The position numbers were made by a program, and so were the translations under genes. Shown here piece after piece: positions 4,131 to 35,998 of a stretch of 42,824 bases of DNA; position 1 is the first letter of the stretch; each line of letters opens with the position of its first letter. The stretch is taken from UHGV virus genome UHGV-0137073, one strand, 5' to 3'. The notes under the pieces are model-generated. The model was given only the letters and a program-made list of their open reading frames with translations, was not told the origin of the DNA and made no database searches. The DNA is from a virus.

Positions 4131-5226
4131 CAGACACTCCACTCATGTTAAGTGTGATCGCCGTACAGTTTGCCCATTCGTTTTCTGCCACCACCCTCAG
4201 TGCCGGTGTCACCAGTTCAACCTGGTACACCCCGGAAACGGACAATGCACTGATAATCTGGCTGGGGACAATATCACGCCCCAGCGTGGCGGCACGTGAT
4301 GCCACCCAGTTCTGTATGGCGCTGTTAGCGGCATCTTTTACAGACCTGGCATCCTGATCACGATAGATCGTAATCCTGGCTTCAATGGTGTAATCCACCT
4401 TCACTGGTGTTTTAGCCCGCACTGTATCAGTGAGTGGCCTGACTTTCTCATCAGAGCAGAAACTCTCTACCAGCGTGAGAACACCGCCGTCCGGCAGACC
4501 GGTACTGAGCAGCGGATACAGATCTACGGTCCCGGGAACCGGGGAAAGCACAGCAACATCGACAATGTTGGGATGGGCCTGCATGGCATGAAAGCGGTAT
4601 GCGCCACGGCTTCCGGCATTGGTGAATGACTCCGGGGCCAGCCTGATACGCTCCCGGAGCCTGTCATCGTCTTCCTGTTCTGAACCGCCGGAACTGGCCG
4701 TCAGATTGCTCACCAGCAGGTCGACGTTATCAATCTCATCGAGTAACTGACTGACCTGCGCAGGTTGCCAGCCGTTACCAGCGGTACCGGGTTCGGTACA
4801 GGTGGACGTGACATTGACCAGCAGCAATCCGGCCTTCAGTACCACATCTGTATCGGTGGCAAAAATAACGCTGTCGGAAGCGCTGACGCGGGTGCCTGCC
4901 GGGATCAGCACATCAATGGTCAGTGCCTCATCCACAGAGAACTGAAGTGTGGTGGTGGCAGGCTGCGCGGCAAGGCGGTATACACCAACCAGTTCTCCGA
5001 GGTAATCAATCATCGGCTCTCGTGAAAAGGCGACCAGATTCTGCTTTGCTGCCTCCTGTACCGCAACCCTGACCAGCATTTCGCGATAGGCCCACAGATC
5101 AATCAGCAGACGTTCTGCCTGTGCCGGGTACAGCGTTTTGCCGGTATCCGCTTCATACTTCGCAATCATTTCTGCCGTGATTTTGTCGGCATCGCGTTCA
5201 ATAAAATCGGGTTCTGTCAGCGCCAT
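4123..5226 (-). CDS. Baseplate protein J-like (P2 gpJ / Mu gp47)
   Basis: 367 aa, conserved position after gpW-like gene, family resemblance by recall. Confidence 0.7.
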   Translation of the reverse strand: MALTEPDFIERDADKITAEMIAKYEADTGKTLYPAQAERLLIDLWAYREMLVRVAVQEAAKQNLVAFSREPMIDYLGELVGVYRLAAQPATTTLQFSVDEALTIDVLIPAGTRVSASDSVIFATDTDVVLKAGLLLVNVTSTCTEPGTAGNGWQPAQVSQLLDEIDNVDLLVSNLTASSGGSEQEDDDRLRERIRLAPESFTNAGSRGAYRFHAMQAHPNIVDVAVLSPVPGTVDLYPLLSTGLPDGGVLTLVESFCSDEKVRPLTDTVRAKTPVKVDYTIEARITIYRDQDARSVKDAANSAIQNWVASRAATLGRDIVPSQIISALSVSGVYQVELVTPALRVVAENEWANCTAITLNMSGVSDD

Positions 5227-5564
5227 AGCAACTCCTGAGTCCGGGTCTGTCCGTCTGAGCCTTTCCAGCTCACCCGGAGCGTAAGATGTTCGCCGTCGAC
5301 GGCGGGTTTAACTGACATAAGCTGGCAGCGGGGCTCCCAGCGTCGGATGGCATCGACGGATTCGCGCACCACATGCGGAATGGCCCGGTCTACAGGCCAG
5401 TCGATATAAAGATGCAGATTGCTGCCGAACTCCGGGCGATGCGGGTCGCTGCCGCGGGGAGTCCGCAGGATAATTTGAATCGCCTGCCGGATATCATCCA
5501 GCCCCCGGACAATTTCGCCGGGAGCCTGCAGGGTCGGTTGCCAGAATACTGAGGTTGTTTTCAT
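5217..5564 (-). CDS. Baseplate protein, GPW/gp25-like
   Basis: 115 aa, ...IRQAIQIILRTPRGSDPHRPEFGSNL... typical of the gp25/GPW lysozyme-like fold. Confidence 0.7.
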   Translation of the reverse strand: MKTTSVFWQPTLQAPGEIVRGLDDIRQAIQIILRTPRGSDPHRPEFGSNLHLYIDWPVDRAIPHVVRESVDAIRRWEPRCQLMSVKPAVDGEHLTLRVSWKGSDGQTRTQELLWR

Positions 5565-5618
5565 GGGGGCAGTATTGCCCCCGTGCGGGAACGCTGATAT
5601 TAAAGGCGTTTAAAAAGC

Positions 5619-20539: not shown

Positions 20540-22062
20540 CAGAATCCCTCCAGCATACGGGCCGCCTGACGACGACGGCGTGAGCTTGCCTTCACCGGCC
20601 CTTTGTTAATTTCACGGCTGGCGAAATACGCCAGCGCCAGTGCGATGGCTGAATCCCCGTGACGTTTACCACCATCAGCCTTTGCTTTTGAGCGTTGCTC
20701 CGGCACGCGGGGGACACCGTTCACCACCTGAACGGCCCGCAGGTCATCCAGTGTGTCTTCATCCTTTGGTAAGTCCACCAGGTTACCGTCTTCCAGTGCA
20801 GCTTTGACCGGAGGCATATGCTCCCGGTACCAGCCTTCGGTTGGCATCACCTGCTGAACCCGGCCGGAGCCGTAGCGCTGCATGGCGTATTCAGCCAGAT
20901 AGGCACCATTACCACGGGCATCAAACGCTGCACCCAGCAGACCGGGCAGGCCATCCATCAGATACCAGGTGATTTGCTCCTGCTGCCTGAACGGCACGTT
21001 ACGCAACTCCAGTACGAATGGCACGCGTCGTATCAGGTTCTTCTCCTGCAACAACGGGTAGTCCACCGACAAATCCCCGCTACGGCCAAAGTCACGCCCC
21101 AGAAAAGAGCGGGCACCAGCGGGGAGCGCCTCCAGTAATGGTTTCAGATGCTCATCAAGCCAGTCCTGCGTCTCGCGGAAGCGAACCTCATCAGACAGCA
21201 GTTCATAACCTTCCTTGCAGGTCAGACGCAATACCGGCGTATCAGCGGACATGCGGGACTCTATCAGGGCTCGGGACAGCCAGGCACCGCCACCGTTGGC
21301 CGGAATACAGTCAAGCTCTTCGGATGCACCGGCACCGTAGAATTTGTACACCGACGCCATCCAGGCCTGCTCGGATGCCTCCGACCATTCCTTCCCGGTG
21401 CGCAGACAAACGCGCCGGAACAGCCCCTCAGATACGGCTTCCCGGAAAGTGATGCGATGTACGCTGCCTCCCTGACGTCCGGCACGGATATCCCCGATAA
21501 GCGTATTGAACGGATTGTCGTCACCGTCATGGGTGGAGATAACGCGTACCTTTCCCCCCCAGATAAGCATCGCCAGCGCCGCTTTCAGCAGTTCGTCCAG
21601 TTGCTCATGGAACGCCGCTTCGTCGATAACAATAATACCCTGACGGCCACGCAGGTTAGACGGGCGGCTGGAGAGCGCAACAATACGAAAGCCGGAGTCA
21701 GGAAATTTGATGGTGTAAGTCCTGATGTGTTTGTCGTCGTCGTCCTCTTCCCAGAATCCTTCTTCAATTTCACTGGCCGCATAGTTGAATGCCCGTGCCC
21801 ACATCGCACACGCCTGAATGTATTCGACGGTCATGTCCTGGTTATAAGCGATGTAATACACATTCATCCCGCCTGCTGGCGCAGAAGAGGCGGCGGTCAG
21901 TACGTTATCGGATGCCTCAGCCCATGTAATACCGGTACGACGGCTCTTTTCTATCACCTTAAGCGGAGAGGCATCTGCCACCCAGCGCTGCTGGTAGGGC
22001 AACAGAACGGGAGGGGCCTTATAACTCGCGGTGTCAGGAATGTGCGGCGGCAGCTCCGTCAT
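20539..22062 (-). CDS. Terminase large subunit
   Basis: 507 aa; ATPase region (...GIIVIDEAAF...) and C-terminal nuclease-like region. Confidence 0.85.
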   Translation of the reverse strand: MTELPPHIPDTASYKAPPVLLPYQQRWVADASPLKVIEKSRRTGITWAEASDNVLTAASSAPAGGMNVYYIAYNQDMTVEYIQACAMWARAFNYAASEIEEGFWEEDDDDKHIRTYTIKFPDSGFRIVALSSRPSNLRGRQGIIVIDEAAFHEQLDELLKAALAMLIWGGKVRVISTHDGDDNPFNTLIGDIRAGRQGGSVHRITFREAVSEGLFRRVCLRTGKEWSEASEQAWMASVYKFYGAGASEELDCIPANGGGAWLSRALIESRMSADTPVLRLTCKEGYELLSDEVRFRETQDWLDEHLKPLLEALPAGARSFLGRDFGRSGDLSVDYPLLQEKNLIRRVPFVLELRNVPFRQQEQITWYLMDGLPGLLGAAFDARGNGAYLAEYAMQRYGSGRVQQVMPTEGWYREHMPPVKAALEDGNLVDLPKDEDTLDDLRAVQVVNGVPRVPEQRSKAKADGGKRHGDSAIALALAYFASREINKGPVKASSRRRRQAARMLEGF

Positions 22063-22607
22063 GATACCACCCCCAGAATTTCCCGGCGCAGTGCCTGTAC
22101 GGCTTCCGCAGAGAGCCCGCCCTTACGGGCAATTTTCTCGGCGGCAGCGGCAGCACGTTCAACCCTCTCTCTGACTTCTGCCTGATAGCGCTTGAGGTTG
22201 ACCGAGGCGCGGGTCAGTGTGGCGATATTTTTTGAAGCCGTTGCCAGCAGTTTTGCCCGGGCGAAGGGATCGTCGTTTTCCCGCGACTCCTGCAGGCGCA
22301 TCAGGATATCCGTCATTTCGGTCTGGACGAGGGTTATCAGCCCGGCTGAACGGTCATCAGGATCGTCTCCGGCCTCCCGGGCAAGCAGACGCGCTGCCTC
22401 GGTTGCCGCCCGCACCCGGGCCAGTTGCTGCTCCATTTTGTAGCCAAACCGCTGCAGGGAAGAGCGGGTGATGCTGTACCCCTTTTCCTTCAACAGACTT
22501 TCAAGCTCTGCATAGCCGGTGAAATTATTCTCCGTCAGTGCCCGCTCAAGCCAGCGACGGACCTCCTTCGGCAGAGAATCAATGCTGCTGCGACGTCCCA
22601 TAATCAC
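22059..22607 (-). CDS. Terminase small subunit-like protein (Mu gp27-like)
   Basis: 182 aa directly upstream of and overlapping the terminase large subunit start. Confidence 0.6.
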   Translation of the reverse strand: MIMGRRSSIDSLPKEVRRWLERALTENNFTGYAELESLLKEKGYSITRSSLQRFGYKMEQQLARVRAATEAARLLAREAGDDPDDRSAGLITLVQTEMTDILMRLQESRENDDPFARAKLLATASKNIATLTRASVNLKRYQAEVRERVERAAAAAEKIARKGGLSAEAVQALRREILGVVS

Positions 22608-22915
22608 TCACTCCAGTATTTTTCCGGGCGGGCAATACCGGGGCCGCATTCCACGGTGTATTCCACAATATCCACACCAAGGCGACTCAGATCGGCAAAC
22701 CAGTCACCGGAAGGCCTCTTCTCCAGTTCCACCATCTTGCGATCTGCCAGGTAATCAAGCTCACGGCGCAGCTCCAGTTGCGTGGTGTCCGGGTAGATGG
22801 CGCGGGACACTTCCAGCAGCAGCGTCTCGCTGGCGGTATAAGGGCGGGTTTTGTTCAGGGCAACCAGCAGACTCCAGCGCAGGGATTCGCGGCGTACCCG
22901 GGTAATATCGACCAT
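22604..22915 (-). CDS. Hypothetical phage protein
   Basis: 103 aa in the late operon between the lysis genes and terminase; start overlaps upstream stop. Confidence 0.45.
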   Translation of the reverse strand: MVDITRVRRESLRWSLLVALNKTRPYTASETLLLEVSRAIYPDTTQLELRRELDYLADRKMVELEKRPSGDWFADLSRLGVDIVEYTVECGPGIARPEKYWSE

Positions 22916-23241
22916 TATTGACCTCCGGTATTGCGGTACTGCTGTACCACTTCCAGTTTGTTGTAGAGCGCGTCCAGTTTGGCCTCGATGACTGTCTGGC
23001 CACGGATATAATCCTCGCGACGGACATAATTCAGCGGTAAATCCGCTTTAAATCGCATAAATTCTTTTTCCAGTTCGCCCCAGTTGGAGGCGGACTGTTG
23101 CAGGGCCTGCTCAAGGGAGGCGAATCGTGCCGCCTGGCGTTCTTCTGTTTTACTGAACAACCATTTGGCGAGCCCTCCCACAAACCCCATGAAGGTGAGC
23201 AAAAAACTCACCACCGTCCAGAATTCAACCTGCAGTGTCAT
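22915..23241 (-). CDS. Small membrane protein with N-terminal transmembrane helix
   Basis: 108 aa; hydrophobic N-terminus WTVVSFLLTFMGFVGGLAKWLF followed by a coiled-coil-like region. Confidence 0.45.
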   Translation of the reverse strand: MTLQVEFWTVVSFLLTFMGFVGGLAKWLFSKTEERQAARFASLEQALQQSASNWGELEKEFMRFKADLPLNYVRREDYIRGQTVIEAKLDALYNKLEVVQQYRNTGGQ

Positions 23242-23849
23242 TTCTGTAATCCTTCCCGTTCATCCAGTAGCGCGTTTATCTGGTTTCGCCAGCGACGACA
23301 TTGCCCTGCGTTGTCGATGATGTTGGCAAGGACGTCAAGCTGGGAGACACCCGAATTGCGTAACCGGGCGTCAGCGGTTTCAGGTTGCCCGGTCGCTGCG
23401 CCAGTGCCGGTGCCAGCGGCGGCAACTGAGTCTGAATGACCGGTGTCGACGGATGCGTTGTCGTATCCGAGTGCGGCGTTGTACTGGCGCACGAAACCGC
23501 GAGTAAACACGCACTCAATGGGATGGCTCTTACCTTTTTCATCAATCCAGCGCTGTGTGACATCGTTAATTTGCCCCTGTAGTTGTTTGTTCTGGTCCTC
23601 CAGTTGAGCAATCTGCTCAAGATAACCAGCTTCAGCCCGTTGCCCGGCGGCTACCTGCTCCTGATAACGCTCAGACCATGCGCGCAACGCCGCCACCTCA
23701 CGCCGGGCCTGTTCTGCCCGGTATCCGTCAAAATCCGCCTGCAGGCGGCTGAGCGCCGCCTGACCGTCAGCGGAGGCCCGGTCGTGGCCTGTGCTGTATC
23801 CCAGCCACCAGATCGCCAGCAGGAAGGTGTTCAGGAGAATGGCCAGCAT
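23238..23849 (-). CDS. i-spanin (Rz-like)
   Basis: N-terminal TM helix MLAILLNTFLLAIWWLGY then a long Gln/Ala/Glu-rich coiled-coil periplasmic domain; follows the endolysin. Confidence 0.6.
   Translation of the reverse strand: MLAILLNTFLLAIWWLGYSTGHDRASADGQAALSRLQADFDGYRAEQARREVAALRAWSERYQEQVAAGQRAEAGYLEQIAQLEDQNKQLQGQINDVTQRWIDEKGKSHPIECVFTRGFVRQYNAALGYDNASVDTGHSDSVAAAGTGTGAATGQPETADARLRNSGVSQLDVLANIIDNAGQCRRWRNQINALLDEREGLQK
23276..23542 (-). CDS. o-spanin (Rz1-like lipoprotein) embedded in the i-spanin gene in another frame
   Basis: MKKVRAIPLSACLL... signal peptide with lipobox LSAC, Pro/Thr-rich mature part, fully embedded in the Rz-like gene. Confidence 0.55.
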   Translation of the reverse strand: MKKVRAIPLSACLLAVSCASTTPHSDTTTHPSTPVIQTQLPPLAPALAQRPGNLKPLTPGYAIRVSPSLTSLPTSSTTQGNVVAGETR

Positions 23850-23877
23850 AATGACCCGCCACGGCAGCGACCGTAAC

Positions 23878-24615
23878 TTACGTACCCACACAGCTTGCCC
23901 CTCCCCATGAGAGATAACGCGGGGCCAGCGTGAACAGGATGCGCTGGGGATAATGACGGTTCTCCCGCCAGCTGGCAGTGCTGCGTCCGGCATTCACCGT
24001 GGCGACATGACCAAACCAGCGGGTGCTGTCCAGCCCTTTTTGTGATGCAAGCCGCCTGTCCCGCTGTACCCAGCCCAGACCACCGTTATAGCCCGACAGT
24101 GTCATGGCCATACGCTCGCAGTCACTGGCGGCGCTGACGCGCTGCCACAGCCAGCGGTCATAGCTGACCAGCGCCCGGATGGCCCATGCCGGATTAAATG
24201 GCTCACGGCTGTTAAGCCCCGGCATCAACTGACTTATCCAGTCGGCGGTGGCGGGCATGAACTGCGCCAGTCCCTGAGCGCCAACCGGCGAGATCGCATC
24301 AGGTCGCCAGCCGCTTTCCTGATGCAGTTGCGCAGCGAAATCAGCCACCGGCGCAGACAGTCCCCATTCAAGCCGGGCATTACGGATCACATCATCGCGA
24401 TACTGCAGCGCTGCCTGCGGAGGCTGCGCTGCGCGGGCCTGACTGAAGAAGCCGCCACACCAGAGCAACATTGCGACAAAGAATACCCGTGCCATATGAA
24501 CCAGAAAGGTCCCGGCGCGGACTGACAGGCGTTCGGTTCTGATGAAGACCCTAAAGGCTTCGAAAGCCAGTTTCAGGGACATGCATACAATCCAGGTGAT
24601 CTGCGGCCAGTTCAT
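23878..24615 (-). CDS. Endolysin, lytic transglycosylase (SLT domain), with N-terminal signal or SAR-like sequence
   Basis: Catalytic region ...LHQESGW...AQGLAQFMP...; hydrophobic MARVFFVAMLLWCGGFFSQARA near the N-terminus; alternative start ATG at 24495. Confidence 0.75.
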   Translation of the reverse strand: MNWPQITWIVCMSLKLAFEAFRVFIRTERLSVRAGTFLVHMARVFFVAMLLWCGGFFSQARAAQPPQAALQYRDDVIRNARLEWGLSAPVADFAAQLHQESGWRPDAISPVGAQGLAQFMPATADWISQLMPGLNSREPFNPAWAIRALVSYDRWLWQRVSAASDCERMAMTLSGYNGGLGWVQRDRRLASQKGLDSTRWFGHVATVNAGRSTASWRENRHYPQRILFTLAPRYLSWGGASCVGT

Positions 24616-24617
24616 GA

Positions 24618-24968
24618 TTAAAGCCCCATCGCAACAGCCAGACAGACCGCTGCAACAATCAGTGCACGGCGGATTAACGCAGCAGAAAACACCAGGTGAA
24701 GGCCGGTCTGTACCGGGAAACGCCCATCAGCCATCAGCCTGTCGTCATGTTTCAGGTACTGACCGGGACGGGCTTTGGGGAAGAGCGAACGGTCAAGCCA
24801 GTAACCCAGCACTGCTGCCAGCGTGATGAGTGCCAGCTTGTAGATCACAACAGGCAACTGCTGTGGCGAGACCAGAGCGATGGTGCCCAGCAACAGCACT
24901 GAGGTCAGCAGCCAGCCGCTGAGGCGAGGTTTTTTAACAGGGGGAATGAATTTTTTCAGGTTTTTCAT
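24618..24968 (-). CDS. Putative holin (three predicted transmembrane segments)
   Basis: 116 aa from the ATG with strong SD (AAGGAG-N7-ATG); three hydrophobic helices; stop overlaps the endolysin start. Confidence 0.5.
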   Translation of the reverse strand: MKNLKKFIPPVKKPRLSGWLLTSVLLLGTIALVSPQQLPVVIYKLALITLAAVLGYWLDRSLFPKARPGQYLKHDDRLMADGRFPVQTGLHLVFSAALIRRALIVAAVCLAVAMGL

Positions 24969-24972
24969 GTGT

Positions 24973-24994
24973 GTCTCCTTGTCTGGTGGAGACA
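24973..24994 (-). promoter_or_regulatory. Stem-loop that can sequester the holin Shine-Dalgarno
   Basis: Inverted repeat tgtctcc (24973-24979) / ggagaca (24988-24994); the AAGGAG of the holin start lies in one arm. Confidence 0.35.
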
Positions 24995-25098
24995 GCATCA
25001 CAAATACAGGGCGCGAAGGATTTTAAAGCGCGTTAAGAGAGCCGGGGATACGGGATGTGCAGGATAAACGATGAATTATTCACAGAGGAGAATACGAT

Positions 25099-25842
25099 AT
25101 GACGCAGACACTGAATCCGGTCATCACTGTCACCGTGTCCGGTCCTGTGGGCAGCGGTAAAAGTTACATATTGGCGCGGATAGAGGAAGTGGTGAAACAG
25201 GAATTCGGGGGCAGCGTCATTGTCGATGCTGCAGACGTAGATGATGAGCGGCGTATGAGTGGCGATGATCTGACGACCTGGCAGAAGCCACGGGGTGGCA
25301 CAGTGATCAGGCTGGAGGAATACACGGGACAGGGCCTGTTGTCATACGGCGAGGAGCGTATCTGTCGGACGAATGAGCTGCTGGATGTTATATGCCCCAC
25401 GGGCCGGCAACCCTGGATACTGCCCGATGCACTGCATGCCACCATTGCGGCACTGATGACAGTTTACGATCAGGAGCTGCTCATGAAGGAGCTACGTAAA
25501 CTCACCGGTCAGCCAACAGAATGTTTTTCTGCCCCGAAGTACGGGAAACAGGAACACATCCCGGTGAACACGCTCCCCGTTAACCAGCCTCCCCGGTTCT
25601 TCGACGAATACATTCTGACACCGGAAAATAAAGCTGAGCACGAAGAGATCAAAGCGGCGTTGTTCCGGGAAATCAGGAAGATTGCTGAAATGCAACTGGG
25701 GGGCGGGCTGGACAGAGTGATGGCGAGAGGAGAATGGGAGTCGCTGTTTGAAAGAGTTTCCCCGGAATTACTTCCCCTCGCACTGGCTATCGGGATTATG
25801 CAGACAGCGGATAAACCTCACTTACGTTCATTAAACACGTAA
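25099..25842 (+). CDS. Hypothetical P-loop NTPase-like protein (accessory gene)
   Basis: Walker A-like GPVGSGKS near the N-terminus; GAGGAG Shine-Dalgarno; divergent from the late operon; no family recognised. Confidence 0.5.
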   Translation: MTQTLNPVITVTVSGPVGSGKSYILARIEEVVKQEFGGSVIVDAADVDDERRMSGDDLTTWQKPRGGTVIRLEEYTGQGLLSYGEERICRTNELLDVICPTGRQPWILPDALHATIAALMTVYDQELLMKELRKLTGQPTECFSAPKYGKQEHIPVNTLPVNQPPRFFDEYILTPENKAEHEEIKAALFREIRKIAEMQLGGGLDRVMARGEWESLFERVSPELLPLALAIGIMQTADKPHLRSLNT

Positions 25843-26222
25843 CGCATAATCCGGGATACGCATTCAGCGATGACTGCATTTTCACCGGTTTTTACTGCAT
25901 CCAGAAGTGACTCTTTAAATGGTGCGGGCCGGGGCTGCAGAAGGGTCGGCGTGGCATTGAGCAGACGGAGCGTTTTTTCCGTGAGGACGACATCAGCCGC
26001 TCCCACAGCCAGCAACTGAGAGTAACGAATATAGCTGTTATCCCGAAGCCATATCAGCGTATCAATAAAATACCGGCACTTTTTCTGGTCGTGATCAACC
26101 TGGTCCGGGATATCGAAAAAACCAGAATAAATCAAAACCTGAGGTGCCGGATGCGTGTTCAGTAATCGGCAGAATATTTTGCCGGTGAGTGCATAAAAAT
26201 CATCATTTAAGGAGTGCATCAT
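25818..26222 (-). CDS. Hypothetical protein (accessory gene, convergent with the P-loop gene)
   Basis: 134-aa ORF exactly fills the gap between two + strand genes; start codon overlaps the divergent start of the next gene. Confidence 0.4.
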   Translation of the reverse strand: MMHSLNDDFYALTGKIFCRLLNTHPAPQVLIYSGFFDIPDQVDHDQKKCRYFIDTLIWLRDNSYIRYSQLLAVGAADVVLTEKTLRLLNATPTLLQPRPAPFKESLLDAVKTGENAVIAECVSRIMRYVFNERK

Positions 26223-26436
26223 GAATCCCCGATTAACGTTAACAGAACATCAGCGCCGTGCTGAAGCAGTGAACAATGTTCTGGAAGATATTATCCGGTT
26301 ACATCGCGGAGAACTGAGTGTCTGTCGTGCCGCTTTTCATTTTCAGGGAATACAAAAGCAGTTTGATACTTCTGTTTTTGCAGAAGGTATTACTTATGCC
26401 CTGGACCGGATAAGGTCAGAAAATCGCCCCGGATAA
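26221..26436 (+). CDS. Hypothetical small protein (accessory gene)
   Basis: 71 aa with strong TAAGGAG Shine-Dalgarno. Confidence 0.45.
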   Translation: MNPRLTLTEHQRRAEAVNNVLEDIIRLHRGELSVCRAAFHFQGIQKQFDTSVFAEGITYALDRIRSENRPG

Positions 26437-26627
26437 TCCCTAAACCACATTAACAGAAATCCCACTATCCCTGCCGCATCATGAAAGAACGACCAGCCCG
26501 GTGCTTCGGACCCACCGGGCTGGCCATCGTCCCACAGAAGTGGCTGTGAGCCGACCGAGGTTCAGTCAGTCTCGCGAGACCAGACTAGCCTGCCATATTT
26601 TTAATAATTGTAAAAGGCTTACAGATT

Positions 26628-34981: not shown

Positions 34982-35186
34982 ATCTGTTGTATGTGCCCTG
35001 TTCTGGTATTGTTTTGTCGGTTGGTGTACTGCTGAACTGCACCGCCGTTCAGGGTTTTATTCACGTTACAGTGGTGCTGGCTACTGGATTAGCTGGTCGG
35101 TGATGTTCCTGTGCTGGCCTGTGGCGCTTCCTTTATATGTCGATTATATCGGTGGCGCAGGTAAAAGGAGCAACGATGATGACTAA
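34971..35186 (+). CDS. Small membrane protein
   Basis: 71 aa with two hydrophobic helices (VVCALFWYCFVGW..., WSVMFLCWPVALPLYV). Confidence 0.35.
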   Translation: MTAESVVCALFWYCFVGWCTAELHRRSGFYSRYSGAGYWISWSVMFLCWPVALPLYVDYIGGAGKRSNDDD

Positions 35187-35628
35187 ACAACGTCTTATCC
35201 AGCTCATTCATATTGCCCGTAATGAACTGGGTATGGATGAAGACACCTACCGCCAGATGTTACAGGGGCTGACCGGTAAAGCCTCAACCAAAGGAATGGA
35301 TACCACACAACTAAACTGCGTGCTGGAATCCATGAAAAGGAAAGGCTTTCGCGTTAAGCCTGCCGGAAAAGCCAGCTCCGGTTTACCGCTGGATAACCAT
35401 CCGCAGTCCAGGAAAATCCGTGCGCTATGGCTTGAAATGGCTGCTGCCGGCATTGTTCGTGACCGTTCAGAAAATGCATTAGCGCGGTGGATCAAGCGGG
35501 AAACGGGCATCAGCGCCCTGCGCTGGCTCAGTACTGAACAGGCAAGCAGTGTTATTGAGAAACTGAAGAAGTGGCAGCGCAGAGCTGCGGGAGTCAAACA
35601 TGAGCGACCTGAATCAGTTTCGAAGTAA
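35176..35628 (+). CDS. gemA: GemA-like protein (Mu gp16 / DUF1018)
   Basis: MMTKQRLIQLIHIARNELGMDEDTYRQML... typical GemA N-terminus; AAGGAG Shine-Dalgarno. Confidence 0.65.
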   Translation: MMTKQRLIQLIHIARNELGMDEDTYRQMLQGLTGKASTKGMDTTQLNCVLESMKRKGFRVKPAGKASSGLPLDNHPQSRKIRALWLEMAAAGIVRDRSENALARWIKRETGISALRWLSTEQASSVIEKLKKWQRRAAGVKHERPESVSK

Positions 35629-35998
35629 AGGGCCGGAACTCCTGGTGGAGCTGGCACAGCATACCTCTGAGACCGTTCGCGAGATTATTGATATTGAGCC
35701 CGCAATTGCCGACCAGATTGGTCAGGCCGTCGCGAACCGAATGATGCAGGTCTGGGGCGGGCAAAACGTTTATTTCCCGATGGGCATGGTATGGAAGGTC
35801 AGTCAGCGCGACCGGGAAATCTTCAGGGAGTTTAACGGACGCAACCACCACGAACTGGCCCGCAAGTTTGGTGTTTCGCTTCAGTGGGTCTACAGCGTGG
35901 TTAAGCGGGTCAGAAAAGAAGAACTGGATCGGATGCAGGGCAGGTTGTTTGATGAAGATCTGCCAGAGGAGACGAAAGACGTTAACAAATCCAGATAA
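35600..35998 (+). CDS. mor: Mor/C-family transcriptional activator (middle or late gene activator)
   Basis: 132 aa with C-terminal HTH ...ELARKFGVSLQWVYSVVKR; last gene of the early operon before a terminator. Confidence 0.7.
   Translation: MSDLNQFRSKGPELLVELAQHTSETVREIIDIEPAIADQIGQAVANRMMQVWGGQNVYFPMGMVWKVSQRDREIFREFNGRNHHELARKFGVSLQWVYSVVKRVRKEELDRMQGRLFDEDLPEETKDVNKSR

What the first reader, a model, noticed from the sequence alone, without database searches (positions are those of the whole stretch)
23238..25001. Compact lysis cassette: holin with hairpin-sequestered SD, signal/SAR-type SLT endolysin, and embedded Rz/Rz1 spanins
The holin start (24968) has a strong SD that lies in one arm of a 7-bp stem-loop (24973-24994), suggesting translational gating. 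The endolysin is a lytic transglycosylase whose N-terminus carries a hydrophobic signal or signal-anchor-release-like segment, implying export independent of large holin holes. The o-spanin lipoprotein gene (lipobox LSAC) is entirely embedded out of frame in the i-spanin gene.
Basis: partly seen in the sequence, partly recalled or inferred. Interest (0 to 1): 0.4.

Follow-up and report, generated by a model that had tools for sequence, protein, structure and literature searches.

The report
BcepMu-type prophage lysis cassette

Summary
The cassette is real and is a member of the published BcepMu-type lysis module. It is 100% identical in many E. coli genomes and present in 638 of 5426.

All genes are on the minus strand:
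- holin, 24968-24618 (PF13272)
- SLT endolysin, 24615-23878
- i-spanin, GTG 23891-23238
- embedded +1-frame o-spanin, 23563/23542-23276

- The conserved endolysin start is 24615, not 24495.
- The endolysin N-terminus ends in a conserved AXA signal-peptidase site and its hydrophobic segment is not SAR-like. A cleavable Sec signal is likelier than SAR.
- The lipobox Cys is more likely the second one (LLAVS|C, codon 23491-23489) than LSAC.
- A further membrane protein (p108, 23241-22915) is ATGA-coupled to the i-spanin. It sits where Mu has its releasin gp25, but homology is not detectable.

The SD hairpin (24994-24972) is conserved in enterobacterial relatives, with arms that change together. 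Its 5' arm is also the -7..-1 stretch of a Mor/C-type late promoter motif that occurs four times in the window. Late holin mRNA therefore probably starts just after that arm, as in T4 gene e. Novelty is low and interest modest.

The parts
24987..25036 (-). Predicted Mor/C-type late promoter of the lysis operon. It has a TTAA-N6-TTAA dyad (25036-25023), the hexamer GATGCT (24999-24994) as -10, the discriminator GTCTCC, and a predicted +1 near A24987.
   Evidence: The same architecture, TTAAWATC-N20-ANNCTG, occurs exactly 4 times in the window, always on the minus strand and always intergenic. With one mismatch allowed there are 5 matches against 0.26 expected (sequences). The 26-nt spacing and the A and T of the hexamer are invariant across relatives. 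The dyad centre falls at about -42.5; Mor and C bind a dyad centred at -43.5 (PMC4390567, PMC2582627). A Mor-family gene lies at 35600-35998. The transcription start itself was not measured.
24972..24994 (-). Inverted repeat or RNA hairpin, 7 bp with a 9-nt loop, whose 3' arm contains the holin Shine-Dalgarno sequence (AAGGAG, 24980-24975).
   Evidence: Fold energy -9.8 kcal/mol, z = -2.67. Conserved in nearly all of 77 distinct 5' regions, with at least 5 different arm-sequence types. Cognate arms pair better than non-cognate arms (-15.2 vs -11.6 kcal/mol; 0 of 10000 permutations reach this). 70.8% of cells are paired against 37-46% in slid controls; 13 both-sides changes against 4.0 in shuffles. 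Core pairs: 148 WC, 13 G-U, 2 A-C.
24618..24968 (-). Holin, 116 aa. The N-terminus is strongly basic, there are two clear TMDs (16-35 and 38/45-58), and a third hydrophobic C-terminal segment (102-116).
   Evidence: PF13272 Holin_2-3, 1.1e-41; phrog_1528 'holin', 6e-55. Hydropathy. Alignment A2. RefSeq names it 'putative holin'.
23878..24615 (-). SLT-family lytic transglycosylase endolysin, 245 aa. It starts 3 nt after the holin stop (TAATCATG).
   Evidence: PF01464, 2.1e-14; phrog_669 'endolysin', 5e-67. ES motif at E100, GLAQ at 115, YNGG at 176. The MNWPQIT start is conserved.
24430..24615 (-). Export region of the endolysin, residues 1-62. It comprises a long basic n-region (1-43), the h-region VFFVAMLLWCGGFF (44-57; 24486-24445), and the c-region SQARA, with predicted signal peptidase I cleavage after A62.
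   Evidence: Hydropathy and composition. AXA is conserved in 91 distinct relatives whatever lies upstream. BcepMu gp22 carries a plain signal peptide, MRVLIAFVVALLGAAAPVAA|QVP. Cleavage is inferred, not shown.
23238..23891 (-). i-spanin (Rz-like), 217 aa. It has a GTG start behind GGGGAGG, a basic N-tail, a TMD at about 13-32, a helical periplasmic domain, and Cys127 and Cys198. It overlaps the endolysin 3' end by 14 nt.
   Evidence: phrog_1403 'Rz-like spanin', 5e-88. Start conservation. Features.
23276..23563 (-). o-spanin (Rz1-like), embedded in the +1 frame of the i-spanin gene. It is 95 aa from ATG 23563 or 88 aa from ATG 23542. The mature part is 71 aa with 11 Pro and 21 Ser+Thr.
   Evidence: 55 distinct products in relatives keep the signal sequence, the Cys and the Pro-rich body. 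Several relatives lack the second Met, so 23563 is the conserved start. There is no Pfam or PHROG hit. BcepMu gp24 is annotated 'Rz1, out of frame, embedded proline-rich protein'.
23489..23491 (-).
   Evidence: The PS51257-like pattern and the G+LPP-like pattern match only this Cys. Relatives read LASC, LVSC or VASC here. This is inferred, not shown.
22915..23241 (-). p108, a 108-aa single-pass membrane protein (TMD about 8-28, predicted N-out/C-in) with a cytoplasmic helix. Its start overlaps the i-spanin stop (ATGA). It is the positional counterpart of Mu gp25 (releasin) and BcepMu gp25.
   Evidence: phrog_462, 1.6e-36. Synteny is kept in almost all related loci that reach far enough downstream, and also in BcepMu and B3. 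AF2 predicts one helix over residues 7-104, pLDDT 81. The invariant motif is LP..YVRREDY.RGQ.VIEAKLD. PF10805 does not match and hhalign probability is 5.7%.
22604..22915 (-). p103, a homologue of Mu gp26. It is context rather than a lysis gene and links the cassette to the terminase genes (gp27 homologue at 22059-22607).
   Evidence: phrog_436 matches both p103 (3e-40) and Mu gp26 (7e-43). PF11985 Phage_Mu_Gp27, 8e-51, for the next gene.

Best explanation
This is the lysis module of a BcepMu-type, Mu-like prophage. It is the first block of the leftward late operon.

Shown by sequence and homology:
- a Holin_2-3 family holin;
- an SLT lytic transglycosylase;
- an Rz-like i-spanin with an Rz1-like lipoprotein gene embedded in its +1 frame;
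- a tightly coupled downstream membrane protein (p108), followed by homologues of Mu gp26 and gp27.

Inferred mechanism:
1. A Mor-family activator (gene at 35600-35998) turns on a -35-less late promoter just upstream of the holin.
2. The endolysin is exported by the Sec system through an N-terminal signal and is probably cut by signal peptidase I after A62. It therefore does not need large holin holes.
3. The holin then acts mainly as the timer, by membrane depolarisation or permeabilisation, that lets the periplasmic or membrane-held enzyme degrade the wall.
4. The i-spanin/o-spanin complex then disrupts the outer membrane.

The conserved hairpin that buries the holin SD has its 5' arm in the promoter's -7..-1 stretch. 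Transcripts that start at the late promoter are therefore probably open. Any transcript that reads in from upstream is probably translationally closed, as for the lysozyme gene e of phage T4.

The role of p108 is unknown. Its position and topology suggest a releasin-like or holin/endolysin-modulating protein.
For: Family and identity:
- Pfam and PHROG hits; Bcepmuvirus relatives; 638 of 5426 E. coli genomes; BcepMu gp21-gp27 has the same order and annotation; the seven-gene order is kept in almost all related loci that reach far enough.

Export:
-. A hydrophobic segment followed by AXA is conserved across six or more unrelated upstream N-terminal designs. Position -1 is Ala in 87 of 91 and -2 is hypervariable.

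Spanins:
-. Embedding from 0.50 to 0.94 of the i-spanin length matches the typical range reported in PMC6139136.

Promoter:
-, with PMC4390567 and PMC2582627.

Hairpin:
-. The T4 gene e precedent is in PMC3014915.
Against: - Nothing here is experimental. No transcription start, signal-peptide cleavage, lipid modification or lysis phenotype is known for this element.
- Most relatives have two hydrophobic segments before the AXA site, and this window has a 43-residue n-region. Both are atypical for a simple Sec signal, so a stable or regulated membrane anchor is possible.
- A constitutively secreted and cleaved endolysin would need some further restraint that I cannot identify.
- In this prophage the early genes are divergent from the late genes. 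The only source of read-through into the holin is the small minus-strand gene at 25818-26222, or spurious transcription, which weakens the rationale for a T4-e-type switch at this promoter.
- BcepMu itself does not bury its SD in the same way.
Confidence: 0.72

Rival explanations
1. One reading: the endolysin is a SAR (signal-anchor-release) enzyme. It stays tethered and inactive in the inner membrane and is released uncleaved when a pinholin depolarises the membrane.
For: - The N-terminal hydrophobic segment includes a GG pair and a Cys.
- Mu and D3112-like Mu-like phages use SAR endolysins (PMC9239132).
- Most relatives carry a second, weaker hydrophobic segment, FWWQLAGNLVIVWLLWCGGFF (mean Kyte-Doolittle hydropathy 1.38), that includes N and Q.
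- A downstream protein sits in the releasin position.
Against: - The window segment is strongly hydrophobic and aromatic (mean KD 2.26, G/A/S/T fraction 0.21) compared with the Mu gp22 SAR domain (0.89, 0.55).
- The AXA site is almost invariant and sits exactly at the junction with the mature domain in 91 distinct relatives. These include relatives with Leu-rich classical signal peptides and BcepMu gp22.
Confidence: 0.15
2. The hairpin is part of the late holin mRNA because transcription starts upstream of 24994. It throttles or delays holin translation directly, acting as a lysis-timing device.
For: - The pairing is conserved and the arms co-vary.
- G-U is tolerated far more often than A-C in the core pairs (13 vs 2), which points to a sense-strand RNA.
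- The fold extends to include the AUG (-14.6 kcal/mol).
- No sigma-70 consensus promoter is found in the 130-bp intergenic region, so the start site is not established.
Against: - The hexamer xAxxCT immediately before the 5' arm has an invariant A and T, and sits at a fixed 26-nt distance from a conserved dyad, in 4 window sites and across the family.
- With Mor/C geometry (dyad at about -43), the +1 falls just after the 5' arm.
- At P4 the same geometry puts +1 on the A of the ATG.
Confidence: 0.25
3. The inverted repeat has no RNA function. The pyrimidine-rich discriminator GTCTCC is kept for promoter reasons, and the purine-rich SD is complementary to it by nature. Alternatively, the repeat acts on DNA, for example as a protein site or in promoter melting.
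For: - CTGYCYCC is shared by all four late-promoter-like sites.
- At P4 and in BcepMu the discriminator pairs with sequence upstream of the -10 hexamer rather than with an SD.
- Any CTCC-containing stretch will pair with GGAG.
Against: - Completely different arm pairs keep the complementarity: GACCACCTC/GAGGTGGTT, GCCTCCAT/ATGGAGGC and AACTGTTTCCAT/ATGGAAACAGTT.
- Cognate arms pair better than non-cognate arms; 0 of 10000 permutations reach the cognate mean.
- G-U outnumbers A-C.
Confidence: 0.2
4. p108 is a functional analogue of the Mu releasin gp25, or an antiholin-like regulator. On this view it is required for timely activation of the exported endolysin, making this a five-gene lysis cassette.
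For: - Same position (after the spanins, before the gp26 and gp27 homologues), same size and same predicted N-out/C-in single-pass topology as gp25.
- ATGA translational coupling to the i-spanin.
- Kept next to SLT endolysins in BcepMu, B3-like and other phages.
- Two relatives at 59-60% identity are named DUF2730 by UniRef.
Against: - PF10805 gives no hit at E <= 1 for p108, BcepMu gp25, B3 ORF28 or eight relatives.
- BLASTP finds nothing and hhalign gives a probability of 5.7%.
- The family's invariant motif (YVRREDYxRGQ) is absent from gp25.
- The endolysin here looks cleavable, so the rationale for a releasin is weak.
Confidence: 0.3

Closest known systems
Burkholderia phage BcepMu lysis cassette gp21-gp24, plus gp25 (NC_005882; Summer et al. 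2004, cited from memory; annotation)
   Same: Same gene order and families: holin, SLT endolysin with an N-terminal export signal, Rz, an embedded out-of-frame proline-rich Rz1, an inner-membrane protein, gp26 and TerS. The holin is the same Pfam family. p108 is about 52% identical to gp25.
   Different: - The endolysin here has a 62-residue export region; most enterobacterial relatives have two hydrophobic segments. BcepMu gp22 has a 20-residue plain signal peptide.
- The SD-burying hairpin of the enterobacterial members is not present in the same form in BcepMu.
Phage Mu lysis system: gp22 SAR endolysin, gp23/gp23.1 spanins, gp25 releasin, no holin (PMC9239132)
   Same: It is the first block of the late operon under a Mor/C-family activator. 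The order is endolysin, then spanins, then a small N-out/C-in membrane protein, then gp26 and gp27. The gp26 and gp27 homologues fall in the same PHROG or Pfam families.
   Different: - A holin is present here.
- The endolysin is a transglycosylase with an AXA site, not a SAR muramidase.
- The spanins are embedded here but overlapped in Mu.
- p108 is not detectably DUF2730.
Lambda Rz/Rz1 embedded two-component spanin (PMC6139136)
   Same: The o-spanin lipoprotein gene lies wholly inside the i-spanin gene in the +1 frame, over 0.5-0.94 of its length. The mature o-spanin is proline-rich. The i-spanin is a type II membrane protein with a helical periplasmic domain.
   Different: - There is no sequence similarity to the lambda proteins, and the PHROG family differs.
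- The i-spanin is longer (217 aa) and has a Gly/Thr/Ala-rich linker.
- The mature o-spanin here has no Cys other than the lipidated one, although some relatives have one.
T4 gene e (lysozyme) translational control: late promoters lie inside the 5' strand of an RBS-sequestering hairpin (PMC3014915; McPheeters et al. 1986)
   Same: A lysis gene whose SD is paired with a segment that coincides with the late promoter. Promoter-initiated RNA lacks the 5' arm and is open, while longer RNAs are closed.
   Different: - The promoter type is Mor/C-dependent sigma-70, not T4 gp55.
- The gene is a holin, not the lysozyme.
- The transcription start is only predicted.
- The early operon is divergent, so the source of read-through RNA is unclear.
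Secretory endolysins with cleavable signal peptides, for example Lys44 of Oenococcus phage fOg44 (mentioned in PMC2628397)
   Same: An N-terminal Sec-type signal with a signal-peptidase site on a phage endolysin that is encoded next to a holin.
   Different: - The host here is Gram-negative.
- The enzyme is an SLT type.
- The n-region is unusually long or has two segments.
- Cleavage is not demonstrated.

Membership tests
Holin (Pfam PF13272 Holin_2-3, BcepMu gp21 type) | Significant match to the family profile over its full length | tested here: met
   PF13272, 1.1e-41, profile positions 1-106 of 106; phrog_1528, 6e-55.
Holin (Pfam PF13272 Holin_2-3, BcepMu gp21 type) | Small membrane protein with at least one TMD, encoded next to the endolysin | tested here: met
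   116 aa with 2-3 hydrophobic segments. Its stop is 3 nt before the endolysin start.
Holin (Pfam PF13272 Holin_2-3, BcepMu gp21 type) | Forms timed lesions in the cytoplasmic membrane (function) | not testable with these tools
   I found no experimental paper on this family in the library. Pfam itself calls it 'putative'.
SLT lytic transglycosylase endolysin | SLT domain with the catalytic Glu (ES motif) and the GLxQ and YNxG motifs | tested here: met
   PF01464, 2.1e-14. E100-S101, GLAQ at 115, YNGG at 176.
SAR (signal-anchor-release) endolysin | N-terminal TMD that is weakly hydrophobic and rich in Gly/Ala/Ser/Thr | tested here: not met
   G/A/S/T fraction 0.21 and mean Kyte-Doolittle hydropathy 2.26, against 0.55 and 0.89 for the Mu gp22 SAR domain.
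SAR (signal-anchor-release) endolysin | Not processed by signal peptidase (no cleavage site after the TMD) | tested here: not met
   ARA|A follows the h-region. Position -1 is Ala in 87 of 91, -3 is A/V/S in 85 of 91, and -2 is variable. This concerns the motif only; cleavage was not assayed.
SAR (signal-anchor-release) endolysin | Release from the membrane and activation on depolarisation | not testable with these tools
   Needs fractionation and lysis assays.
Sec signal-peptide (secretory) endolysin | n-h-c organisation with a (-3,-1) small-residue site at the junction with the mature domain | tested here: met
   R43, then a 14-residue h-region, then SQARA|AQPP. The site is conserved in all N-terminal classes.
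Sec signal-peptide (secretory) endolysin | Short n-region typical of Sec signals | tested here: not met
   The n-region here is 43 residues. Most relatives have an additional upstream hydrophobic segment (50 of 91).
Two-component spanin, embedded architecture (Rz/Rz1 type) | i-spanin: N-terminal TMD in N-in/C-out orientation, helical periplasmic domain, located just downstream of the endolysin | tested here: met
   phrog_1403 'Rz-like spanin', 5e-88. Basic N-tail plus TMD at 13-32.
Two-component spanin, embedded architecture (Rz/Rz1 type) | o-spanin: lipoprotein signal with a lipobox Cys, and a +2 residue that is not Asp | tested here: met
   LLAVS|C-A. The PS51257-like and G+LPP-like patterns match, and the site is conserved in 54 of 55 distinct products. 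Which of the two Cys is modified is inferred.
Two-component spanin, embedded architecture (Rz/Rz1 type) | o-spanin gene lies wholly within the i-spanin gene in another frame | tested here: met
   23563-23276 lies inside 23891-23238, in the +1 frame. The same holds in relatives; the o-spanin ends 35-62 nt before the i-spanin end.
Releasin / DUF2730 (Mu gp25) | Match to PF10805 | tested here: not met
   No hit at E <= 10 for p108 and none at E <= 1 for 10 relatives. Mu gp25 itself scores 2.5e-13.
Releasin / DUF2730 (Mu gp25) | Profile-profile similarity to the gp25 family | tested here: inconclusive
   hhalign probability 5.7%, E = 0.0067, collinear over the TMD and the first helix only. The gp25 alignment is shallow. 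Two UniRef names of p108 relatives say DUF2730.
Releasin / DUF2730 (Mu gp25) | [quoted passage not shown] | tested here: met
   The criterion comes from PMC9239132.
Releasin / DUF2730 (Mu gp25) | Required for release of the endolysin | not testable with these tools
   Genetic test needed.
T4 gene e-type promoter-embedded RBS hairpin | SD and/or AUG paired with an upstream segment | tested here: met
T4 gene e-type promoter-embedded RBS hairpin | Late transcription starts inside or after the 5' strand of the hairpin | tested here: inconclusive
   Predicted from promoter geometry only (PMC2582627). No mapped 5' end is available.
T4 gene e-type promoter-embedded RBS hairpin | Longer transcripts that cross the site exist before late transcription begins | not tested
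   The minus-strand gene at 25818-26222 lies upstream, and no terminator-like site was found between it and the holin. There are no expression data.

The most novel reading that the evidence does not exclude
In the enterobacterial BcepMu-like prophages examined here, the -7..-1 discriminator of the Mor-dependent late promoter may double as an anti-Shine-Dalgarno strand for the first gene of the operon. This is seen at the holin promoter across those relatives (not in BcepMu itself), and within this window also at the head and tail promoters. Only RNA born at the activated promoter would then be translatable. That would be a T4-gene-e-like safety catch that arose independently in transposable phages and guards the holin. 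In addition, p108 may define a second, non-DUF2730 family of releasin-like lysis regulators, paired with signal-peptide or two-segment-anchored SLT endolysins.
Probability: 0.3. Interest if true: 0.55.

Novelty: new member of a known kind. Interest (0 to 1): 0.3.

Why it matters
As a gene cassette this is routine. It re-finds the BcepMu lysis module in a very common E. coli prophage.

Its practical value is in better annotation:
- RefSeq leaves both spanins unnamed. The i-spanin is called from the wrong start and the o-spanin is not called at all.
- p108 is annotated only as 'membrane protein'.

Three points could matter to specialists in phage lysis if they are confirmed:
- A holin whose ribosome-binding site is paired with the discriminator of its own activator-dependent promoter.
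- An SLT endolysin family with a near-invariant signal-peptidase site behind very different, often two-segment, membrane-targeting regions. This raises the question of how a secreted endolysin is kept harmless in a Gram-negative host.
- A conserved protein in the releasin position that is not DUF2730.

Tried and rejected
- Internal endolysin start at ATG 24495. Rejected: the Met is not conserved (it is Val in L016 and absent in most relatives), no SD is correctly spaced, and residues 1-40 are conserved as protein.
- The window's odd N-terminal variant as a compensated frameshift of the common two-segment form. Rejected: the other frames give a stop or an unrelated peptide (my reading). It looks like a diverged version of the L077-type sequence.
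- ATG 23849 as the i-spanin start (the RefSeq choice). Rejected.
- TAAAAT/TAATAT inside the dyad as the -10 hexamer, which would put the hairpin in the leader. Judged unlikely: about ten relative types have TAAAAG, which lacks the key T, whereas the A and T of xAxxCT are invariant.
- Sigma-70 consensus scan of the intergenic region: nothing found.
- Rfam scan of 22000-26500: only two sub-threshold snoRNA-like chance hits.
- p108 tested as DUF2730 by Pfam, NCBIfam, BLASTP and hhalign: negative or inconclusive.
- The AF2 model of p108 is a single long helix, so I did not run a fold search; it would not be informative.
- PADLOC scan of p108, p103 and the two upstream genes: nothing significant.
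- Literature search for 'BcepMu holin' experiments: none found.

Full report
**What is there**

All genes of the finding lie on the minus strand. The window is a Mu-like prophage of the BcepMu type.
- The stretch 22000-25100 is 100% identical to chromosomes of E. coli ABU 83972 and many other strains. It occurs in 638 of 5426 complete E. coli genomes.
- The nearest phage records are Escherichia phage PhiKM (classified as Bcepmuvirus, 92%) and a record named Klebsiella phage KP12 (87%).
- Downstream are homologues of Mu gp26, gp27 (PF11985, 8e-51), the large terminase and the portal protein.
- A Mor-family activator gene and a GemA gene lie at 35600-35998 and 35137-35628 on the plus strand.

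**The genes**

- *Holin*, 24968..24618. PF13272 Holin_2-3, 1.1e-41 over the whole profile, and phrog_1528 'holin'. It has a very basic N-terminus, two clear transmembrane segments and a third hydrophobic C-terminal stretch.
- *Endolysin*, 24615..23878. SLT domain (PF01464, 2e-14; phrog_669) with the ES, GLAQ and YNGG motifs. It starts 3 nt after the holin stop.
- *i-spanin*. phrog_1403 'Rz-like spanin', 5e-88. Relatives show that the conserved start is the GTG at 23891, behind GGGGAGG. The ATG at 23849 that RefSeq uses aligns with Leu, Ala or Val elsewhere.
- *o-spanin*. It lies wholly inside the i-spanin gene in the +1 frame, from 0.50 to 0.94 of its length. That is the typical range for embedded spanins (PMC6139136). 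The mature part is proline-rich.
- BcepMu itself is annotated with exactly this layout: gp21 holin, gp22 SLT endolysin, gp23 Rz, gp24 'Rz1, out of frame, embedded proline-rich protein', gp25 inner-membrane protein, gp26, gp27 TerS.

The order holin, SLT, Rz/Rz1, p108, p103, gp27 is kept in almost all related loci that reach far enough, down to about 40-60% protein identity. The same layout recurs in further loci from other enterobacterial genera.

1. *Endolysin start.* MNWPQIT (or MxWPQ) at 24615 is conserved. The internal Met at 24495 is not.
2. *Lipobox.* Both Cys residues are conserved. LSAC lies only six residues after the charged n-region. A PS51257-like pattern and a G+LPP-like pattern accept only the second Cys, LLAVS|C. 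Distant relatives have canonical LASC, LVSC or VASC at the second site and degenerate CPAC, SGAC or SIAC at the first. Several relatives lack the MKKV Met, so the conserved o-spanin start is ATG 23563. Which Cys is modified remains an inference.

**Signal peptide or SAR**

The window protein has three parts before the mature domain:
- a 43-residue, net basic n-region;
- a 14-residue, strongly hydrophobic, aromatic h-region (VFFVAMLLWCGGFF; mean Kyte-Doolittle hydropathy (KD) 2.26; G/A/S/T fraction 0.21);
- SQARA|AQPP.

The Mu gp22 SAR domain scores mean KD 0.89 and G/A/S/T 0.55 on the same measures.

Across 91 distinct N-termini from relatives, the region upstream of the mature domain takes very different forms. 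There are two hydrophobic segments separated by a charged loop in 50. Others have short single segments that look like deletions, Leu-rich classical signal peptides, or the plain BcepMu signal. The junction, however, is constant. Position -1 is Ala in 87 of 91 (the other four look like register slips). Position -3 is Ala, Val or Ser in 85. Position -2 is hypervariable.

That is the signature of a signal peptidase I site. A cleavable Sec signal is therefore more likely than a SAR anchor. The long or two-segment n-regions are unusual, and cleavage has not been shown.

p108 (23241..22915) starts in an ATGA overlap with the i-spanin stop.
- It has one N-terminal TMD with a predicted N-out/C-in orientation. 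AlphaFold models it as one long helix (residues 7-104, pLDDT 81).
- It occupies the position of Mu gp25, the releasin that frees the Mu SAR endolysin (PMC9239132).
- The next gene, p103, falls in the same PHROG as Mu gp26.
- p108 relatives accompany SLT endolysins in BcepMu, phiE255 and Pseudomonas B3-like phages, among others.
- Homology to gp25 could not be shown. There is no PF10805 hit for p108 or ten relatives, BLASTP finds nothing, and hhalign gives a probability of 5.7%.
- Two UniRef names of relatives at 59-60% identity do say DUF2730.

I treat p108 as a positional and topological analogue of unknown function.

**The hairpin**

The stem (24994-24988 with 24978-24972) exists and folds at -9.8 kcal/mol, z = -2.7. 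With flanks it also covers the AUG (-14.6 kcal/mol).

In 77 distinct holin 5' regions from 139 loci, almost all keep an inverted repeat whose 3' arm holds the SD. The arm sequences can be quite different: GTCTCC/GGAGAC, GACCACCTC/GAGGTGGTT, GCCTCCAT/ATGGAGGC, TGCCTTCAT/ATGGAGGCA, AACTGTTTCCAT/ATGGAAACAGTT and GGTCTCC/GGAGACC.

Supporting measures:
- Cognate arms pair better than non-cognate arms (-15.2 vs -11.6 kcal/mol; 0 of 10000 permutations reach the cognate mean).
- On a 26-sequence alignment, 70.8% of cells pair against 37-46% when the partner is slid. There are 13 both-sides changes against 4.0 in shuffles (0 of 500 shuffles as high).
- Core pairs are 148 Watson-Crick, 13 G-U and 2 A-C.

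The pairing is therefore selected, and the G-U excess hints at sense-strand RNA. Relatedness among the sequences inflates these figures.

**The complication: a promoter across the 5' arm**

Just upstream lies a conserved block, yTTAA-N6-TTTAAAAKC. Exactly 26 nt further on is the T of a hexamer xAxxCT whose A and T are invariant. The 5' arm follows immediately.

The same architecture (TTAAWATC-N20-ANNCTG) occurs exactly four times in the window: at 25026-24993, 17628-17595, 11711-11678 and 5603-5570. All four are on the minus strand, in intergenic gaps ahead of blocks of late genes. With one mismatch allowed there are 5 matches against 0.26 expected.

Mu late and middle promoters have a -10 hexamer and no -35. 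They carry a 16-bp dyad centred at -43.5 that is bound by C or Mor (PMC2582627, PMC4390567). Here the TTAA-N6-TTAA dyad centre falls at about -42.5 if xAxxCT is the -10.

On that reading, transcription starts near A24987, just after the 5' arm. That RNA is unstructured (-0.5 kcal/mol).

This is the arrangement described for T4 gene e. There, late promoters lie in the 5' strand of an RBS-sequestering hairpin. Late RNA is translated, and longer early RNA is not (PMC3014915).

The other sites behave as follows:
- P2 and P3 also pair their discriminator with the SD region of the next gene (z = -4.5 and -3.9).
- P4 pairs it with sequence upstream of the -10, and its predicted +1 is the A of the ATG.

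Caveats:
- The transcription start is only predicted.
- The early operon is divergent, so the source of read-through RNA at the holin promoter is unclear. The small minus-strand gene at 25818-26222 has no terminator-like site after it.
- BcepMu and B3 do not show the same SD hairpin.

**Verdict**

This is a correctly recognised but ordinary lysis cassette of a known family.
- The SAR suggestion is not supported.
- The lipobox and the alternative start were mis-assigned.
- The hairpin is real and conserved, but it probably acts, if at all, on transcripts other than the late message.

The promoter-embedded anti-SD arrangement, the unusual export regions on the endolysin and the non-DUF2730 protein in the releasin position are the only parts that go beyond annotation. 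Each needs an experiment.

Noticed in passing
window 17595-17628, 11678-11711, 5570-5603 (all minus strand): Three further copies of the late-promoter-like motif TTAAWATC-N20-ANNCTG lie in intergenic gaps ahead of the head, tail and baseplate gene blocks. Each has a hairpin that involves the CTGYCYCC block after the hexamer (z = -4.5, -3.9, -3.2).
   Followed up: partly
window 5564 (ATG of the GPW/gp25-family baseplate gene 5564..5217, minus strand): With the same promoter geometry, the predicted +1 of the fourth site falls on the A of the start codon. There is no correctly spaced SD, so this gene may be expressed from a leaderless mRNA.
   Followed up: no
endolysin N-terminus, window 24430-24615; relatives L002, L006, L069, L074, L076, L121, L127, L131, L138, L143: The export region of this endolysin family is a mosaic hot-spot. 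At least six designs precede the same AXA|AQPP junction: two hydrophobic segments with a charged loop, the window's amphipathic variant, short fused forms, and Leu-rich classical signals.
   Followed up: partly
window 25099-25842 (+) and 25818-26222 (-): A 247-aa P-loop protein (phrog_3787; some genomes call it 'ABC transporter ATPase') is divergent from the holin. Its 3' end overlaps by 25 bp that of a convergent 134-aa gene (phrog_2266). This slot between dam and the holin holds different genes in KP12 and other relatives, so it behaves like a variable accessory region. There is no significant PADLOC hit.
   Followed up: partly
L087 (E. coli ABU 83972, NC_017631.1 around 1804489-1804572): In ABU 83972 the prophage appears to sit just downstream of rstA. 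The next gene, annotated only as 'histidine kinase', is left as an 84-nt pseudogene fragment missing its C-terminus. The insertion therefore appears to have disrupted that sensor-kinase gene (presumably rstB).
   Followed up: no
L116 (QPLR01000374.1, 521-nt contig of Halobellus sp. Atlit-31R): A 521-nt contig in an archaeal (Halobellus) assembly carries the enterobacterial holin/endolysin junction; the holin part is 96% identical at protein level. This is most likely contamination of that assembly.
   Followed up: no
window 23238-23891 / RefSeq annotation in L001: RefSeq (PGAP) annotates the i-spanin as a 'hypothetical protein' from ATG 23849 and does not call the embedded o-spanin at all. Phage records label the i-spanin 'putative lipoprotein'.
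   Followed up: yes
o-spanin relatives in L062, L064, L069, L078, L086: Distant relatives have an extra periplasmic Cys in the mature o-spanin (for example PPSACP or PSVCK). The window-type protein lacks it, while the i-spanin here keeps two periplasmic Cys (127 and 198). The disulfide pattern of the spanin complex may therefore differ within the family.
   Followed up: no
L143 1205-1232 (BcepMu, upstream of holin gp21): In BcepMu the equivalent promoter-like site (CTAA-N6-TTAA, with the T of CAAGAT 26 nt further on) has an 8-bp inverted repeat, ATGCCGTC/GACGGCAT, with the -10-like hexamer as its loop. The discriminator can alternatively pair with the start-codon region (GGCATAT/ATATGCC).
   Followed up: partly
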